Positions 1 to 4,525 of a stretch of 64,000 bases of DNA are shown here, piece after piece. The notes under the pieces were generated by a model. That model was not told the origin of the DNA. It ran no database searches and worked only from the letters and a program-made list of their open reading frames with translations. The DNA comes from Spirochaetota bacterium (GTDB lineage Bacteria; Spirochaetota; UBA4802; UBA5550): the NCBI GenBank assembly GCA_963664815.2, contig CAXXHB010000003.1, forward strand, positions 3,552,001-3,616,000, given 5' to 3'. The position numbers and the translations under genes are program-made. Each line of letters opens with the position of its first letter. Within the stretch, counting starts at the first letter, position 1.

Positions 1-1120
1 TAATATCATCTCTTGAAGTCACCTCCGGGAAAAATGTTCCCAGTTCCTCTCCGGATTTGCCAACGGTAGCAGTGCATGAATATATCTTCCCTGTATAATC
101 GAAAGCCCATTCGCTTTTACAGGCGGGGCATGAATCAAATAACGGATGTGGAAGCTCACCGTTGTCAAAAAGAAACTTTGAAACTGAAAACAGAGGCCTG
201 TGAAACTCAAGTATATGAGGATGCTCATTTATAAGTTTATACAGCTTTTCATACAACTCCACCCGTTCAAAAAGTTTTTTATTACCTGCCATACAGTGAT
301 GCAGTTCATAATTTCTCCCTATCTGTGTTTTAAACAGCGGATTTTGTGTCCATCCCTTTGATATTGCAAAAGATGCAAAATCCGGGAGGTTATCAATATT
401 CTCCCTGTCTATAACCATTCTGAGATTTATCGGAAACCCGTTTCTCAGAGATTCATCTATACCTGCAACTATACGGTCAAATGTCTCACCCCTGTTTTTC
501 ATATAGCGCCGTCCGTCATGGACTTCACGCGTACCATCAAGTGTAACCTGTATTTCTCTAATATTCCCCTCAGACAGAATATTCATGTAATCAACCAGGT
601 TGTAACCGTTTGTAACAACAGCAAGATCCGTTTTTTTCATCGACGCTTTTTCTATAATCATCCGGAGATCATTACGGTTTTTATCGCCCGGAAGAAGCGG
701 TTCGCCGCCGAATATTGTTATATACTTTTTCCTGCCGATGAATTCCCTTTCTATATAGGCAAAGAAAGCATCCACAGCATGTTCAGTCAATGGCGCCTTC
801 TCAGGAGCATACCCATCCTGATAGCAGTATGAACAGGCGAAATTGCATTCATAACCAGGCACAAAAAATATCTGTATTTCTGAATTTTCTCTCTCCTCGA
901 TAAAATCAAGATATGCCAGTTTGTATCTCCGGTTCTCATCAGATTCATCTGAGAGATATCCCTTTGCAGCATACTCTTCCATGTCTGAATATTCACCCTT
1001 AATTACTTCGGCGGCTTTATCGGGAGTAAGAATATCAGCATTCCGGGACAGGGAATTAAGAATAAAATAATTCTCCGAATCTGCCAGTTTTCCAAATATA
1101 TTATGTTTTGAAAATTTCAT
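1..1120 (-). CDS. Radical SAM/SPASM-domain protein, putative peptide maturase (3' end runs off the window)
   Basis: Hand translation from ATG at 1120: MKFSKHNIFGKLADSENYFILNSLS...CNFACSYC (CxxxCxxC)...FGGEPLL...VTNG...QVTLDG..VHD.RR...CPACKSEWAFDYTGKIYSC (SPASM Cx12Gx4C). Open to base 2, so absent from the ORF track. Confidence 0.93.
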   Translation of the reverse strand, partial: MKFSKHNIFGKLADSENYFILNSLSRNADILTPDKAAEVIKGEYSDMEEYAAKGYLSDESDENRRYKLAYLDFIEERENSEIQIFFVPGYECNFACSYCYQDGYAPEKAPLTEHAVDAFFAYIEREFIGRKKYITIFGGEPLLPGDKNRNDLRMIIEKASMKKTDLAVVTNGYNLVDYMNILSEGNIREIQVTLDGTREVHDGRRYMKNRGETFDRIVAGIDESLRNGFPINLRMVIDRENIDNLPDFASFAISKGWTQNPLFKTQIGRNYELHHCMAGNKKLFERVELYEKLYKLINEHPHILEFHRPLFSVSKFLFDNGELPHPLFDSCPACKSEWAFDYTGKIYSCTATVGKSGEELGTFFPEVTSRDDI

Positions 1121-1153
1121 ATTATTATCACCTATCCGTGTTCAGCTAAGATT

Positions 1154-1188
1154 CACGGGGTGCCGGGTTTTTAACCCGGTCCCCCGTG
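1154..1188. other. GC-rich stem-loop between the peptide and rSAM genes
   Basis: cacgggg-tg-ccgggtt-ttt-aacccgg-tc-ccccgtg inverted repeat with no U-tract on the minus strand. Confidence 0.7.
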
Positions 1189-1192
1189 CCTG

Positions 1193-1288
1193 TCAATCGT
1201 GACATCCCGCCACTATTGTAGAAATCTTTGCACAACATTGTGCAACCCTGGAATCCGCCGATTCCTTTTTCCTTATCAGACTGTTCAT
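1193..1288 (-). CDS. 31-aa putative RiPP precursor peptide MNSLIRKKESADSRVAQCCAKISTIVAGCHD
   Basis: AAGGAG RBS upstream of ATG 1288; TGA at 1193-1195; directly upstream of the rSAM/SPASM gene; CC...GCHD C-terminus. Confidence 0.85.
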   Translation of the reverse strand: MNSLIRKKESADSRVAQCCAKISTIVAGCHD

Positions 1289-1339
1289 AATTTGAACTCC
1301 TTATATATTCACCGGCCTTATTGCCGGGTGTATACCATT

Positions 1340-1987
1340 TTAAATATTTTTAAAACCTGTTATCGTCCAGCTTGCCACATCGATCATCCCCTTGGAGTAT
1401 GGTACCGATTCTTCAATAATTCTGATATCGGCAAAACCCGCTTTTTCAAGTGATTCAAGATATTCACCGCGTGTAACCGATCCGGCCCAGCACTCCGCTA
1501 CAGCCTGCGGATCATTCCTGTATTCATCCGGCACTGGCAGGATTGAATATATATCACTTACAATAAATCTTCCCCCGTTTTTAAGAATCCTGTATATACT
1601 GCTCCAGACTCTGTCCTTATCCTCCGCATGGTTTATTGTGCAGTTTGAAATAACAACATCTGCAATTGAATCACCAAGCTTTATATCTTCCAGTTCCGAT
1701 CTTATAATAGCGGCATTCTTTATATCAAATTTTTTGATGAGCTCCTCAGCTTTTTCAATCATCCCATCGGATATATCCACCCCATAGGCGAAGCCGCTTT
1801 CCCCGGCCATATCCGCCAGTCTTACAACATCGTTTCCTCTGCCGCTGCCAAGATCAACACATACCTCGCCTGCTTTTACACCTGCATGATTTATTGCCCC
1901 GCCGCATGAAAGACAACATGAACTCTGTGACAGTGATGAATAACGCTGATTTATAGTTTTCAGCTGTATTTTCTTATATTCACTCAT
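1340..1987 (-). CDS. SAM-dependent methyltransferase, arsenite methyltransferase (ArsM)-like
   Basis: DLGSGRG motif I; Cys motifs LSCGG, ISNCTIN and AECWAGS match the positions of the ArsM catalytic cysteines. Confidence 0.8.
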   Translation of the reverse strand: MSEYKKIQLKTINQRYSSLSQSSCCLSCGGAINHAGVKAGEVCVDLGSGRGNDVVRLADMAGESGFAYGVDISDGMIEKAEELIKKFDIKNAAIIRSELEDIKLGDSIADVVISNCTINHAEDKDRVWSSIYRILKNGGRFIVSDIYSILPVPDEYRNDPQAVAECWAGSVTRGEYLESLEKAGFADIRIIEESVPYSKGMIDVASWTITGFKNI

Positions 1988-1988
1988 T

Positions 1989-2423
1989 TCATTTCTCCAT
2001 TGCCTGTGTTAAATAGATCAGCCCGTTTTCTACAGTATTCAATTCATCATCACGCAGCTGCATTTTGATCTTTTTTTCGCATTCATTTTTAAGTTTTATA
2101 AACGCTTTATGTTTTTTTATTCCCTCTTCGCTGAGCGACAGGTGAACAAACCTTCTGTCATCACTGGTTTCTGAGCGTTCCAGCAGATTTTTTTCAATCA
2201 TCTGATCTACTATCCTGCTCACCCTTGACGGAGAAAGCTTATTCCGTTCAGCCAGCTCATTGCCGTTTATCATCTCGCCGGGTTTTATAGAGAGAAGTAT
2301 AAAGGATTCCGGCCTGGTTAAGTTTTCATTTTTAAGCGTATCCTCGTTGAGGCTGTAGCATATATCACTAAGGTGTAGAATCGTTTCAATTATGTTAATC
2401 TCCATAATATTTTCCTCTGTCAA
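1989..2423 (-). CDS. MarR-family transcriptional regulator
   Basis: ELAE..LS.S.VSRIVD.M..K.L..R....DRR...L.LS..G winged-helix pattern. Confidence 0.9.
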   Translation of the reverse strand: MTEENIMEINIIETILHLSDICYSLNEDTLKNENLTRPESFILLSIKPGEMINGNELAERNKLSPSRVSRIVDQMIEKNLLERSETSDDRRFVHLSLSEEGIKKHKAFIKLKNECEKKIKMQLRDDELNTVENGLIYLTQAMEK

Positions 2424-2644
2424 TAATTGTTATTAACAAATATAATCAGTGAGTACAAAAAGTCAAGCAATATGTTAAGTATTTTATAATTTTATTAAAT
2501 AATCAATATTTCGCAACTTCCCCCCATAAATAATACAAATATTTCAATATAATCTTAATTTCTAATAAATCAGAATTTGGCATAGCTGTAATTTAAAGGG
2601 AAAGTAATAATGAGGCCATACAGATTCATTATAAATATTATTGC

Positions 2645-2873
2645 AGGGGCGGCACCTGGATTTGTTTATTACAAATTTACTTTCAGCTTTTCAATTTAAC
2701 TCTCGAGTTTTTCTATCCTATTAACTAACTGTAGAATTAACTCAACAACCGCATCTTTACCGAGATCATAAATTATTTCAGCATCTTCTCGTTTCATGAA
2801 ATATACTATATAATATGATTTTTAAATTAATAGAAAAAATATTTCCCCGGTTTTTTATAGCTGAGTAGTTAAC
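2645..2873 (-). pseudogene. IS66-family (ISBst12-like) left end and transposase N-terminal remnant
   Basis: Minus strand GTTAACTACTCAGC at 2860-2873 resembles IS66 terminal repeats; ATG 2797 gives MKREDAEIIYDLGKDAVVELILQLVNRIEKLES*IEKLK with internal stops. Confidence 0.6.
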
Positions 2874-2980
2874 ATTTTTTTTCAAAAACCCTACGCCGAA
2901 AACGTATCAGTTACTAAAACCGGCAAGGAGGTTATTTAATAAAAACTTAAAAAGCCGGAACAGCTTATATTGAATTGATG

Positions 2981-3331
2981 CTATTTTTTACTCTTCCGGT
3001 TTTTTTTATCCTTATAATTCAGGTCTGTAAAAAGTATTTCTGCCTGCTCCATGGCTATCCGAAGAGCATCACACCCTTTATCAGTAATATTATAATATTT
3101 TCTGATTTTACCCCCGACATTACAATCTTCATGAAGGAGGTAACCCTTGTTTTCAAGGCCATGAAAAGTATTGTAAAGAGTGCCGTATGATAAATGATAC
3201 CCTGCCTCTGTAAGGTGTTCATGAATTTCCTTTCCGTATACAGGTTCTTTTTTTGCGTATTGGAGAATATATATTTTAATAAATCCGAGAAGAAATTCAT
3301 GTTTCATTACATCAGCCATAGGTGTCTCCAT
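2981..3331 (-). CDS. PadR-family transcriptional regulator
   Basis: FLLGFIKIYIL...YG.EI...L...GY.LS.GTLY...LE.KG.L...GKIRKYY.IT.KG. Confidence 0.9.
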   Translation of the reverse strand: METPMADVMKHEFLLGFIKIYILQYAKKEPVYGKEIHEHLTEAGYHLSYGTLYNTFHGLENKGYLLHEDCNVGGKIRKYYNITDKGCDALRIAMEQAEILFTDLNYKDKKNRKSKK

Positions 3332-3526: not shown

Positions 3527-4525
3527 TTATTTCACTACTGAGTCTGGTTTTTCCGCTGACGCAATTTTTTCAGGTCTGCTGTCAAATTTTCCGGATACGG
3601 CAAATGGAATATTATACTCCTGCGAAGCGTTCCATAAAATAAAACCGTTCACCCCTGCGTCATTAACAGCTTCAATCTGTTTTTCAATATATTTCTCATA
3701 ACTGAGCCCCGATCTTTTTACCTTCATACGGAATGCCTGTATCCATGGGACGATGATACTGTTTTTTACGCGTTTTTTTGCATCAACTGAAGTCAGATGA
3801 ACGGTATAATAAGGATCAGCCATCATTTTTCTGCTCCATGTATAATGTGAAGGATAAGCCATGGGGCATATTACGTTGACCACTTCATCGAGAACCTCCA
3901 TCTTCTGCCCTATGGGATCATCAATATTAAGCGGGATTCGGCCGAAAACATCAACAGCTATCCGCACATTATATTTTTTAAGGCGGTCGCTGAATTTCGC
4001 TACAACTGATTTTATTATCTGGTATTTTTCTTTTATTGTGATATTCTTTAAGATTCCATGATCATTGAACCTTATATAATCGAGCTGGATCTCTTCGAAA
4101 CCGGCCTGACACGCCTCCTCGGCAATAGACAGTCGTTCTTCAAGAAACTCAGCTGATACAGGATACTTTTTAAGACCATCCGGAAACATTACAACCCTTG
4201 CTATTGTGTGAAATCCGTTCTGGGTGCAATATTCCACATTTTTTTTCGGAGTAACAGCCCTGTTCATGGCAGAAGTCTGTACATCTATAACCACTGTATT
4301 AAGTCCCGAAGATTTAGCCCTGTTTATAAAACCGGACAGCTTTTCAAAGTTTCTCCCCGATTCACTGTTAAGATAAAATCCCTTATAAAACTCCGGATAT
4401 TTAAACTCTTTTTTATCACTCTTTGCCTCAGTGAGTTCAACAGCATTTGTTGAACTCCTTATAAAAAACATTGCACCGGCAACAGCAAGAATTAAAACTG
4501 AACCTATTATGATTTTTTTATTCAT
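3527..4525 (-). CDS. Exported putative glycoside hydrolase (DUF4015-like)
   Basis: N-terminal hydrophobic segment; NTVVIDV, GFEEIQLDYIRF, CPMAYPSHY, PWIQAF, WNA motifs. Confidence 0.8.
   Translation of the reverse strand: MNKKIIIGSVLILAVAGAMFFIRSSTNAVELTEAKSDKKEFKYPEFYKGFYLNSESGRNFEKLSGFINRAKSSGLNTVVIDVQTSAMNRAVTPKKNVEYCTQNGFHTIARVVMFPDGLKKYPVSAEFLEERLSIAEEACQAGFEEIQLDYIRFNDHGILKNITIKEKYQIIKSVVAKFSDRLKKYNVRIAVDVFGRIPLNIDDPIGQKMEVLDEVVNVICPMAYPSHYTWSRKMMADPYYTVHLTSVDAKKRVKNSIIVPWIQAFRMKVKRSGLSYEKYIEKQIEAVNDAGVNGFILWNASQEYNIPFAVSGKFDSRPEKIASAEKPDSVVK

What the first reader, a model, noticed from the sequence alone, without database searches (positions are those of the whole stretch)
1..2423. 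ArsM-like methyltransferase and MarR co-transcribed with the peptide/rSAM pair: possible metalloid-linked RiPP system
Seen: order is MarR, methyltransferase (1-nt gap), peptide (51-nt gap), rSAM, all on the minus strand. The methyltransferase keeps Cys at the ArsM catalytic positions (SCGG, SNC, ECW) plus an N-terminal CC. The peptide has exactly three Cys. Established: ArsM binds As(III) through these thiols, trivalent arsenic is chelated by three Cys, and arsinothricin synthesis pairs an ArsM with a radical SAM enzyme (ArsL). Inference: the operon may make or handle an arsenic/metalloid-bearing peptide, or ArsM has been repurposed as a peptide tailoring methylase. I know of no characterised system with this layout.
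Basis: partly seen in the sequence, partly recalled or inferred. Interest (0 to 1): 0.8.

Follow-up and report, generated by a model that had tools for sequence, protein, structure and literature searches.

The report
Conserved cysteine-peptide, radical-SAM, ArsM-like methyltransferase cassette
A tiny, almost invariant three-cysteine peptide gene sits between an arsenic-type methyltransferase and a peptide-modifying radical SAM enzyme, followed by a fused thioredoxin/thioredoxin reductase, in anaerobic bacteria of at least six phyla; no paper or family library searched describes it, and the neighbouring genes do not support the proposed arsenic link.

Summary
On the minus strand lie MarR (1989-2423), a 215-aa ArsM-like methyltransferase (1340-1987, 1-nt gap), a 31-aa three-Cys peptide (1193-1288, 51-nt gap), a strong hairpin, and an rSAM/SPASM enzyme (2-1120, running off the window). 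Downstream of base 1 the rSAM gene overlaps by 4 nt a thioredoxin::thioredoxin-reductase fusion.

Methyltransferase, peptide and rSAM are collinear in 138 of 150 related loci, and all four genes in 117 of 150, across Spirochaetota, Bacteroidota, Myxococcota, Ignavibacteriota, Fibrobacterota and Fidelibacterota. The 16-residue core A-Q-C-C-A-K-x-S-x4-G-C-H-D-stop is nearly invariant, with free synonymous codon use.

The methyltransferase has an ArsM fold and keeps the ArsM cysteines. It scores below NCBI's ArsM cut-off and forms its own clade. The rSAM is a CteB-like peptide maturase with a predicted leader-binding domain, not visibly ArsL-like.

The arsenic link is not supported by context. 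No Acr3 lies in any of 150 loci, the genome's own acr3 is 1.5 Mb away, and canonical ArsM co-occurs in 4 of 12 cassette genomes. Neighbours are thiol-redox genes.

Best reading: an undescribed intracellular modified-peptide system doing ArsM-type thiol and methyl chemistry. This scan has met the same cassette on other DNA at least 12 times.

The parts
2427..2466 (-). Promoter-like site (TTGACT-16-TATATT, 2466-2439) followed by a palindrome TTGTTA-A-TAACAA (2439-2427), a candidate MarR operator
   Evidence: One search gave the promoter match; 12 promoter-like sites were found in the region against 12.3 expected, so it is weak alone. One search shows related TTGC/T-N5-G/ACAA palindromes, often two in tandem, between the -10 box and the MarR start in most of the 25 MarR-bearing loci printed. 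One search places the exact 13-mer at window 2427-2439.
1989..2423 (-). MarR-family regulator (144 aa from TTG 2423; likelier 138 aa from ATG 2405) with two conserved cysteines
   Evidence: Pfam MarR_2 42.5 bits and MarR 39 bits, both over cut-off. Orthologues occur in 25 of 150 loci by clustering, 18 of them within 400 nt upstream of the methyltransferase. Two Cys columns are conserved at 90% or more.
1340..1987 (-). ArsM-clade short methyltransferase (215 aa) with six conserved Cys (C24, C25, C28, C43, C116, C166)
   Evidence: Its best NCBIfam hit is NF008823 at 169.5 bits, below the 263 cut-off. C28, C116 and C166 align to the catalytic Cys of solved ArsM structures. The AF2 model has pLDDT 91 and its 12 best PDB matches are all ArsM/AS3MT, TMq 0.75-0.82. 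All six Cys are kept in 63-64 of the 64 cassette-type rows. It falls in a separate clade with SH-aLRT 99.
1193..1288 (-). 31-aa precursor-like peptide: basic N-terminus MNSLIRKK, variable linker, invariant 16-aa core AQCCAKISTIVAGCHD ending at the stop codon
   Evidence: No Pfam or NCBIfam hit at E <= 0.01. The core is present in 143 of 150 loci and is always 16 residues.
1154..1188 (-). Stem-loop directly after the peptide stop codon, without a U-tract; a candidate attenuator or RNA-stability element
   Evidence: The 80-nt stretch 1121-1200 holding it folds at -31.4 kcal/mol, z = -4.73, with 0 of 200 shuffles as stable. In the first locus set, 48 of 68 loci have a hairpin with z < -2 in the 65 nt after the stop, with differing sequences.
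2..1120 (-). Radical SAM/SPASM peptide maturase with a predicted N-terminal leader-binding (RRE-like) domain. 373 of 438 aa lie in the window; the rest runs off base 1. A Trx::TrxR fusion gene follows outside the window (L007:10515-11807, minus strand, 4-nt overlap).
   Evidence: Pfam Radical_SAM 72 bits. C92-x3-C96-x2-C99 and the SPASM cysteines are invariant. The AF2 model has pLDDT 85 and a three-strand, three-helix N-terminal domain. The best PDB fold is CteB 5why/5wgg, TMq 0.64-0.65, and CteB is also best by sequence at E 2.4e-12. The downstream fusion has Pfam Thioredoxin plus Pyr_redox_2 and TIGR01292 at 323 bits against a 343 cut-off.

Best explanation
This is one copy of a widespread, undescribed modified-peptide cassette: ArsM-clade methyltransferase, precursor peptide, rSAM/SPASM maturase and Trx::TrxR fusion, here under a two-Cys MarR.

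Proposed working, all steps inferred:
1. The peptide is made in excess over the enzymes, because a hairpin follows its stop codon.
2. The rSAM enzyme binds the basic N-terminal leader through its predicted leader-binding domain. Like its nearest relatives, it installs one or more intramolecular thioether links from core cysteines. A Cys14-to-Asp16 link in the invariant C-H-D end is one candidate.
3. The short ArsM-type enzyme keeps the whole ArsM cysteine set. It carries out SAM-dependent methyl transfer on a thiol-bound centre presented by or shared with the peptide. That centre could be a thiophilic metalloid or chalcogen (As, Sb, Se, Te), sulfane sulfur, or the peptide's own sulfur.
4. The fused thioredoxin/thioredoxin reductase re-reduces the disulfides that such chemistry leaves on enzyme and peptide.

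The product probably stays in the cell, since no exporter, protease or immunity gene is conserved. It would serve a dispensable stress or detoxification role, since the cassette's distribution is patchy.

Shown here: the genes, their synteny, the conservation and the fold classes.
For: - Synteny: all four genes are present in 119 of 150 loci, collinear on one strand in 117, and MT-peptide-rSAM collinear in 138. Many of the incomplete loci end at a contig edge.
- Spread: full collinear cassettes occur in Spirochaetota 33, Bacteroidota 60, Myxococcota 14, Ignavibacteriota 3, Fidelibacterota 1 and unnamed 6. Fibrobacterota loci carry MT-peptide-rSAM.
- Peptide: the core has a fixed 16-residue length. 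A1, A5, K6, H15 and D16 are invariant in 143 of 143, with 2-4 synonymous codons each.
- rSAM: the best families are all Cys-peptide maturases, namely CefB 110 bits, TIGR04463 101, Clo7bot 98 and PapB 80. CteB is the best structure by sequence and by fold. The leader-binding-type N-terminal domain is predicted at pLDDT above 90. The SPASM Cys motif is invariant.
- Methyltransferase: ArsM fold, catalytic Cys aligned, six Cys conserved.
- Linkage at genome level: 12 of 12 rSAM-positive relatives have the sub-cut-off ArsM-like gene next to the rSAM, and 0 of 29 rSAM-negative relatives have one.
- Hairpin after the peptide stop.
- Accessory genes are thiol or redox types: DUF302 in 27 loci, DUF1847 in 26, thioredoxin in 24, a two-helix Cys-pair membrane protein (DUF6132-like) in 22. 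Single cases of rhodanese, CcdA/DsbD-like and Rrf2-like genes lie directly upstream, judged by reading their sequences only.
- MarR has two Cys conserved in 90% or more of 25 orthologues.
- Patchy distribution: 12 of 41 related genomes, 5 of 29 genera.
Against: - No modification, methyl acceptor or reductant has been measured, so every chemical step is inference.
- The Trx::TrxR gene is missing within 2.5-6 kb downstream in a Bacteroidales subgroup and in several Fibrobacterota loci (20 loci have MT, peptide and rSAM without it, some cut by contig ends). It is therefore not obligatory in cis.
- Two loci (L046, L066) have the methyltransferase abutting the rSAM gene with no peptide gene found. 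One (L077) has the rSAM with a MarR but neither methyltransferase nor peptide.
- Thioether formation would consume cysteine thiols that the metalloid-binding idea needs.
- The rSAM scores far below every named family's cut-off, so its reaction type may differ from that of its relatives. anSME (Cys to formylglycine) is the second-best fold.
Confidence: 0.55

Rival explanations
1. Arsenic-specific reading. The three-Cys peptide chelates As(III), standing in for a glutathione conjugate in bacteria that may lack glutathione. The ArsM-like enzyme methylates the peptide-bound arsenic, and Trx::TrxR recycles the ArsM disulfide.
For: - All canonical ArsM Cys positions are kept and the fold is ArsM's.
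- ArsM is the best family hit.
- A CC-plus-C triad at fixed spacing is invariant.
- By recall, a thioredoxin system is the ArsM reductant in vitro, and ArsD binds As(III) through a vicinal Cys pair plus a third Cys.
- A small membrane protein with two Cys pairs sits directly upstream in 16 loci. By recall this resembles small mercury-uptake proteins.
Against: - Acr3 is found in 0 of 150 loci, and no ars gene cluster occurs in 4 or more loci.
- No ArsR-like gene was recognised immediately upstream.
- The genome's own acr3/permease/ArsE-like locus is 1.5 Mb away.
- A canonical ArsM over the cut-off co-exists with the cassette in 4 of 12 cassette genomes.
- The methyltransferase scores below the ArsM cut-off and falls in a separate clade that holds none of the 48 canonical ArsMs.
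- A peptide-maturing rSAM has no evident role in plain arsenic methylation.
Confidence: 0.15
2. Plain tailoring enzyme. The methyltransferase only methylates the peptide, on a Cys sulfur, the His ring or the C-terminal Asp carboxylate. The product is an ordinary bioactive modified peptide, and the thioredoxin system merely keeps the cysteines reduced for the rSAM enzyme.
For: - The methyltransferase gene is adjacent to the precursor gene in 138 of 150 loci.
- By recall, class I methyltransferases are common tailoring enzymes in such clusters, and thioredoxin-like genes occur in the sporulation-killing-factor cluster. SkfB is a weak PDB hit of the rSAM.
Against: - Six Cys, including the whole ArsM catalytic set, are conserved in the cassette-type methyltransferases. 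A simple methylase would not need them.
- No transporter, protease or immunity gene appears among gene clusters shared by 4 or more loci.
- An invariant core across six phyla is unlike antimicrobial peptides, which diversify (the comparison is from general knowledge).
Confidence: 0.15
3. Peptide-derived thiol cofactor or redox buffer. The rSAM forges a sulfur-carbon bond within the invariant Cys-His-Asp end, for instance a thiohistidine-type link. The methyltransferase methylates it, and Trx::TrxR cycles it between thiol and disulfide. This would be an oxygen-free counterpart of small thiol antioxidants.
For: - The C-terminal G-C-H-D is invariant.
- There is a dedicated reductase, and thiol-redox neighbours such as OsmC, thioredoxins and DUF302.
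- The hairpin favours high peptide output.
- By recall, mycofactocin and PQQ are precedents for rSAM/SPASM-made cofactors from peptide C-termini.
Against: - No peptidase or lyase to release a small molecule is conserved.
- The whole 16-residue core is constrained, not only its end.
- The ArsM-type Cys set is unexplained by this reading.
- No partner enzyme that would use such a cofactor was identified.
Confidence: 0.1
4. No functional link: the methyltransferase and MarR merely neighbour an unrelated peptide/rSAM pair.
For: None beyond the lack of experiments. Three of 150 loci break the pattern.
Against: Collinearity in 138 of 150 loci across six phyla, and 12 of 12 against 0 of 29 co-occurrence among relatives.
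Confidence: 0.03

Closest known systems
SCIFF peptide with CteB/ScfB, and PapB/freyrasin-type ranthipeptide systems (rSAM/SPASM thioether synthases with a leader-binding domain)
   Same: A short Cys-bearing precursor lies directly upstream of an rSAM/SPASM enzyme that has an N-terminal leader-binding-type domain. CteB is the best solved structure by sequence (E 2.4e-12) and by fold (TMq 0.64-0.65). CefB, TIGR04463, Clo7bot, PapB and the SCIFF maturase are among the best family hits. Like SCIFF, the peptide is unusually conserved for its class.
   Different: Every family cut-off is missed by a wide margin: CefB 110 against 600, PapB 80 against 340, SCIFF maturase 53 against 425. The core has three Cys in a different motif. 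The system is tied to an ArsM-clade methyltransferase and a Trx::TrxR fusion, which I recall in none of these systems; this was not checked here. The taxa are Spirochaetota, Bacteroidota, Myxococcota and others.
ArsM / AS3MT arsenite S-adenosylmethionine methyltransferase with the Trx/TrxR reductant system
   Same: The fold matches: the 12 best PDB matches are all ArsM or AS3MT. Three catalytic Cys align and an N-terminal Cys pair is present. A thioredoxin system is encoded alongside.
   Different: It is 215 aa, without the N-terminal ~40 residues, the loop between the Cys pair and the GCG-type Cys, or the C-terminal domain; it aligns to model positions 59-232 of 272. It scores below the curated cut-off. 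It forms a separate clade. It has two further conserved Cys, including C43 by the SAM motif. It has no ars neighbours.
Arsinothricin pathway (ArsL radical SAM plus ArsM) and arsenosugar pathway (ArsS plus ArsM)
   Same: A radical SAM gene sits beside an ArsM-like gene.
   Different: The methyltransferase scores 99 against 500 (NF040538), 90.5 against 240 (NF040539) and 66.7 against 400 (NF038099), all. The rSAM is a peptide maturase with a SPASM domain and an adjacent precursor peptide. By recall, ArsL and ArsS act on inorganic arsenic and need no peptide.
Mycofactocin and PQQ systems (rSAM/SPASM modification of an invariant peptide C-terminus to make a cofactor)
   Same: An invariant C-terminal motif, an rSAM/SPASM enzyme with a leader-binding domain, an intracellular product and patchy distribution. 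The mycofactocin maturase and PqqE are weak hits.
   Different: No peptidase or oxidase partners are present. The whole 16-residue core is conserved. The chemistry centres on Cys rather than on Tyr, Val or Glu.

Membership tests
ArsM (NCBIfam NF008823, arsenite methyltransferase) | Score at or above the curated cut-off of 263 bits | tested here: not met
   169.5 bits, aligned to model positions 59-232 of 272; 169.7 bits in the genome search. Of 100 representative relatives, 48 pass. Most of the ~205-226-aa short forms were not listed at E <= 1e-55, and most of those listed fall below the cut-off.
ArsM | Conserved catalytic cysteines (recalled CmArsM numbering C72, C174, C224) and an N-terminal Cys | tested here: met
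   C28, C116 and C166 align with the GCG, SNC and EC Cys of 5evj and 4kw7/4fr0. C24 and C25 lie 3-4 residues before C28 instead of ~28 before. All are kept in 63-64 of the 64 cassette-type rows.
ArsM | ArsM-type fold | tested here: met
   AF2 model pLDDT 91.1. PDB ranks 1-12 are all CrArsM, CmArsM or human AS3MT, TMq 0.75-0.82. The first other methyltransferase has TMq 0.69. The C-terminal domain of the solved ArsMs is absent: TMt is only 0.52-0.56.
ArsM | Falls inside the clade of canonical ArsMs | tested here: not met
   In a quick maximum-likelihood tree of 104 rows, all 12 cassette enzymes lie in a 23-row clade (SH-aLRT 99) that holds none of the 48 proteins passing the cut-off. Eight odd or partial rows were dropped beforehand. 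The root is at the midpoint only.
ArsM | Methylates As(III) | not testable with these tools
   Needs an enzyme assay.
ars operon member | Neighbourhood with arsR, acr3/arsB or arsC | tested here: not met
   tblastn with the genome's own Acr3 found it in 0 of 150 loci; the ArsE-like thioredoxin in 1 and the permease in 2. No ars-type cluster occurs among gene clusters shared by 4 or more loci. ArsC and ArsR were not searched with queries of their own.
Arsinothricin ArsM/ArsL pair | NF040538 or NF040539 cut-off for the methyltransferase; ArsL-type rSAM | tested here: not met
   99 against 500 and 90.5 against 240 bits. The 25 best of 70 rSAM family hits shown include no arsenic-pathway rSAM. An ArsL model was not searched by name, so the rSAM half rests on that list.
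rSAM/SPASM peptide maturase | CX3CX2C radical SAM motif, SPASM cysteine motif, leader-binding domain, adjacent precursor peptide | tested here: met
   C92, C96 and C99 are invariant. G344-x4-C349 and C388-x2-C391-x5-C397-x3-C401 plus C417 are invariant in 23 sequences (the motif definition is recalled). A three-strand, three-helix N-terminal domain is predicted at pLDDT above 90. The peptide gene lies 72 nt upstream.
SCIFF maturase (TIGR03974), PapB (NF047865), CefB (NF038107) | Curated cut-offs | tested here: not met
   53 against 425, 80.2 against 340 and 110.2 against 600 bits.
MarR family | Pfam MarR or MarR_2 over the gathering score | tested here: met
   42.5 against 27 and 39 against 24.6 bits. 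No NCBIfam equivalog cut-off is reached.
Thioredoxin-disulfide reductase (TIGR01292) | Curated cut-off and a redox-active CxxC | tested here: inconclusive
   323.3 bits against a 343.45 cut-off. CATC and an N-terminal thioredoxin CPPC are conserved in 107 sequences. Pfam Thioredoxin and Pyr_redox_2 are both over their cut-offs.

The most novel reading that the evidence does not exclude
A ribosomal peptide serves as the dedicated carrier or co-substrate for an ArsM-type enzyme. The rSAM-shaped peptide holds a thiophilic metalloid or chalcogen (As, Sb, Se, Te) or sulfane sulfur between its own cysteines and the enzyme's. The methyl group goes onto that atom, and the private Trx::TrxR resets both partners. 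This would be the first peptide-templated metalloid methylation system. It might also help explain earlier reports, which I recall rather than checked, that anaerobes carrying arsM-like genes often fail to methylate arsenic in pure culture.
Probability: 0.2. Interest if true: 0.9.

Novelty: new variant of a known kind. Interest (0 to 1): 0.68.

Why it matters
The cassette is frequent in sediment, groundwater and gut-type anaerobes of at least six phyla, yet gene callers appear to miss its central gene. In a cultured RefSeq genome the exact peptide sequence is in no protein collection searched, and the rSAM is named only 'radical SAM protein'.

The arsM-like gene could be counted as an arsenic-methylation marker in metagenomic surveys. 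If it works on or with a peptide instead, such counts would be inflated.

The pairing of an invariant Cys peptide, a peptide-maturing rSAM, an ArsM-clade enzyme and a private reductase points to chemistry that no paper or family library searched here describes. Cloning four small genes would make it directly testable.

Tried and rejected
- Predicted complex of methyltransferase, peptide and SAM: no verdict (score 0.02 against a mark of 0.32). It counts neither for nor against binding.
- MarR regulon hunt: the palindrome pattern TTGYYAATARCAA has 4 genome matches against 3 for the reversed control. The two other exact sites lie by unrelated genes, so no regulon was found.
- Rfam: no family in the 5 kb around the operon.
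- Terminator after the Trx::TrxR gene: none on the coding strand, so the operon's end is undefined.
- Plasmids: the best rSAM relatives are at or below 29% identity, in Bacillus and Muribaculaceae plasmids. No sign of plasmid carriage.
- Literature, 8 full-text searches: no paper on this gene set, and the peptide motifs AQCCAK and QCCAK occur in no paper. Subscription journals are largely outside that library. From PMC13188914 I read passages only. It lists ArsM-type selenoproteins but not this cassette.
- The repeat finder on the minus strand returned an error. I read the upstream regions in a script instead.
- One search used a wrong peptide pattern, with one residue too many, and so reported no peptides. 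One search repeats it correctly. Only the Acr3, permease, ArsE and phylum counts are used.
- The second methyltransferase copies in 7 loci are Cys-less and unrelated to the cassette. They were set aside.
- A Sec-for-Cys variant of the peptide or enzyme was considered, but none was seen. The peptides first missed in L060 and L075 simply start with GTG.


Full report
THE OBSERVATION

On the minus strand of window 1-2423, the ORF list and the sequence show five features in order:
- A MarR-family gene at 1989-2423. Its likelier start is the ATG at 2405.
- One base later, a 215-aa methyltransferase at 1340-1987.
- After 51 nt, behind an AGGAG site, a 31-codon ORF at 1193-1288 encoding MNSLIRKKESADSRVAQCCAKISTIVAGCHD, with three Cys.
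- After a further 72 nt, a radical SAM gene at 2-1120 that runs off the window.

The window is G000:C3:3552001-3616000, so I fetched the DNA beyond base 1. The rSAM protein is 438 aa. Its stop overlaps by 4 nt the start of a 430-aa fusion of a thioredoxin (CPPC) with a thioredoxin-reductase-type flavoprotein (CATC). The fusion hits Pfam Thioredoxin and Pyr_redox_2 and TIGR01292 at 323 bits against a cut-off of 343. A 390-nt gap and a sigma-54-type activator gene follow.

IS THE GROUPING REAL?

I collected 71 loci with the rSAM protein. A relative of the methyltransferase brought 80 more, one of them (L058) already held, giving 150 loci in all.
- All four genes are present in 119 of the 150 loci and collinear on one strand in 117.
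- Methyltransferase, peptide and rSAM are collinear in 138.
- Many incomplete loci end at a contig edge.
- A Bacteroidales subgroup and several Fibrobacterota loci truly lack the reductase within 2.5-6 kb.
- By their record titles the loci come from Bacteroidota (80), Spirochaetota (37), Myxococcota (15), Fibrobacterota (7), Ignavibacteriota (4), Fidelibacterota (1) and 6 unnamed.

Among 41 genomes related to the window's genome, the rSAM is found in 12, from 5 of 29 genera. The sub-cut-off ArsM-like gene lies beside it in all 12 and is found in none of the other 29.

THE PEPTIDE

The core is found in 143 of 150 loci and is always 16 residues ending at the stop codon: A-Q-C-C-A-K-x-S/T-x-x-x-x-G-C-H-D.
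- A1, A5, K6, H15 and D16 are invariant in 143 of 143 although the search pattern did not require them.
- Q2 is kept in 141 of 143 and S8 in 140 of 143.
- Each invariant position uses two to four synonymous codons, and all three stop codons occur.

This shows selection on the protein, not on the DNA. The N-terminus (MKSLIKK-type) is conserved, and the linker varies in length and sequence. Some Fibrobacterota and Paludibacter peptides carry an extra CC or CxC in the linker.

No Pfam or NCBIfam model hits the peptide. In the RefSeq genome of a cultured Pleomorphochaeta (L105) the exact peptide sequence is in no protein collection searched. There the rSAM is named only 'radical SAM protein' and the reductase 'FAD-dependent oxidoreductase'.

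A stable hairpin starts right after the peptide stop. The 80-nt stretch holding it folds at -31.4 kcal/mol, z = -4.7. A hairpin with z < -2 occupies the same place in 48 of the 68 peptide-bearing loci of the first set, with unrelated sequences. This fits a precursor made in excess of its enzymes.

THE rSAM ENZYME

Its best families are all Cys-peptide maturases: CefB, TIGR04463, Clo7bot, geopeptide and PapB. All score far below their cut-offs.
- CteB is the best solved relative by sequence and by fold. anSME, SuiB, ChlB and TigE follow.
- The radical SAM CX3CX2C motif and the SPASM cysteines are invariant in 23 orthologues.
- The model shows a confident three-strand, three-helix N-terminal domain of the leader-binding kind.

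It is thus a peptide maturase and does not resemble an arsenic-alkylating rSAM. By analogy its most likely product is one or more Cys-derived thioethers. This is inference.

THE METHYLTRANSFERASE

ArsM is its best family, but at 169.5 bits against a cut-off of 263, covering only model positions 59-232. The arsinothricin and arsenosugar ArsM models are missed by far more.
- C28, C116 and C166 align with the catalytic Cys of solved ArsMs.
- The motif INxRYSxLAxxxCCLSCGGA reads like the ArsM N-terminus with the loop between the Cys pair and the GCG cysteine deleted. The comparison with canonical ArsM N-termini is from recall.
- Six Cys are conserved in 63-64 of the 64 cassette-type enzymes. They include C43 beside the SAM-binding glycine motif, which canonical ArsMs lack in the alignments.
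- The AF2 model (pLDDT 91) matches ArsM and AS3MT structures at ranks 1-12.
- The Cys-bearing loop, residues 21-30, is the least confident stretch, with mean pLDDT 65.

In a tree of 104 relatives the cassette enzymes sit in a well-supported clade of short forms. That clade contains none of the 48 proteins that pass the ArsM cut-off. So it works like an ArsM as far as sequence and fold can tell, but it is not a member of ArsM as curated.

IS ARSENIC INVOLVED?

The context says no more than 'thiol chemistry'.
- The genome's own Acr3, used as query, is found in 0 of 150 loci. Its own acr3/permease/ArsE-like locus is 1.5 Mb away.
- The recurrent accessory genes are a divergent Zn-ribbon protein in 34 loci (33 of the 34 upstream on the opposite strand; function untested), DUF302 (27), DUF1847 (26), MarR (25), thioredoxins (24), a small two-helix membrane protein with two Cys pairs that is DUF6132-like just under the Pfam cut-off (22), NuoE-like (16), Crp/Fnr (11), and a 67-aa membrane protein and a pyridine-nucleotide-disulfide oxidoreductase (8 each).
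- Immediately upstream of the methyltransferase I also saw single cases of a rhodanese-like, a CcdA/DsbD-like and an Rrf2-like gene, judged by reading only, and nothing ArsR-like.
- A canonical ArsM over the cut-off co-exists with the cassette in 4 of 12 cassette genomes, and occurs in 4 of 29 without it. The cassette enzyme is therefore not simply these organisms' ArsM.

None of this excludes a metalloid substrate. It means that the arsenic reading rests on the enzyme's ancestry alone.

REGULATION

The MarR has two Cys conserved in at least 90% of 25 orthologues. By recall this arrangement resembles two-Cys OhrR-type sensors. A palindrome, TTGTTA-A-TAACAA at 2427-2439, lies between a promoter-like site and the start codon. 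Related palindromes, often in tandem, are seen in most MarR-bearing loci. A genome-wide search found no further credible sites.

WHAT IT MOST LIKELY IS

It is a dispensable, horizontally spread, intracellular modified-peptide system. The rSAM shapes an invariant Cys peptide. An ArsM-clade enzyme with a private thioredoxin system then performs thiol-dependent methyl transfer on or with that peptide.

I put about 0.55 on this composite. About 0.15-0.2 of the total goes to a true metalloid or chalcogen substrate held by the peptide, 0.15 to plain peptide methylation, and 0.1 to a peptide-derived thiol cofactor.

NOVELTY

Eight full-text searches found no description. No curated family covers the peptide, the rSAM or the methyltransferase.

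Earlier notes of this scan describe the same cassette on other genomes at least 12 times and reach the same 'undescribed' verdict. I formed my reading before seeing them, and my counts are my own.

The kind is known: an rSAM/SPASM enzyme with a leader peptide. The partnership with an ArsM-clade enzyme and a fused reductase, and the cross-phylum invariance of the core, are new.

Noticed in passing
L007:10515-11807 (minus strand; just outside the window, downstream of base 1): In the consensus of 107 Trx::TrxR fusions, the stretch after GGGNSA.EE reads T.vHQFd...AN. As I recall, NADPH-dependent thioredoxin reductases carry an HRR...R motif there. The fusion may therefore use NADH or ferredoxin. 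It scores just under the TIGR01292 cut-off (323 against 343).
   Followed up: partly
L046:5387-7314 and L066:897-2839: Two Bacteroidales loci have the ArsM-like gene directly abutting the rSAM gene. No peptide gene and no Trx::TrxR were found anywhere in the 9-13 kb held.
   Followed up: partly
L077:5505-7308: A Chitinispirillaceae locus has a 50%-identical rSAM preceded by a MarR, but no methyltransferase or peptide.
   Followed up: no
L019, L020, L060, L086, L091, L095, L100, L125 (peptide ORFs): Some peptides carry a second CC or CxC pair in the linker, for instance a near-duplicate of the QCCA motif just before the core.
   Followed up: no
G000:C3:2005495-2009484 (L079): The genome's own arsenic locus holds ACR3 (453 bits, over cut-off), a SaoE-like permease (143 bits, under cut-off) and an MTH895/ArsE-family thioredoxin-like protein. 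It lies 1.5 Mb from the cassette.
   Followed up: partly
L007:1193-8470 (beyond the window, further downstream): Within 12 kb downstream lie a PAS/sigma-54 activator, a Fur-like regulator, two Gly/Arg-rich small proteins, a ferredoxin-like protein, a second methyltransferase, a second radical SAM protein and a 566-aa protein that looks like a CoA-disulfide reductase with a rhodanese tail. These identities come from reading the translations only. Only the sigma-54 activator recurs, in 1 of 150 loci (L016).
   Followed up: no
window 2981-3331 and 3527-4525 (minus strand): A PadR-family regulator and a DUF4015 (putative glycosyl hydrolase) gene lie upstream of the operon across an AT-rich gap (GC 0.29-0.31 at 2250-3000). 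A PadR homologue is found in 0 of 150 related loci.
   Followed up: partly
proteins P0122, P0128, P0134, P0145: Several 470-640-aa relatives match the short methyltransferase in two stretches, so they may be tandem or fused forms of the ArsM-like domain.
   Followed up: no
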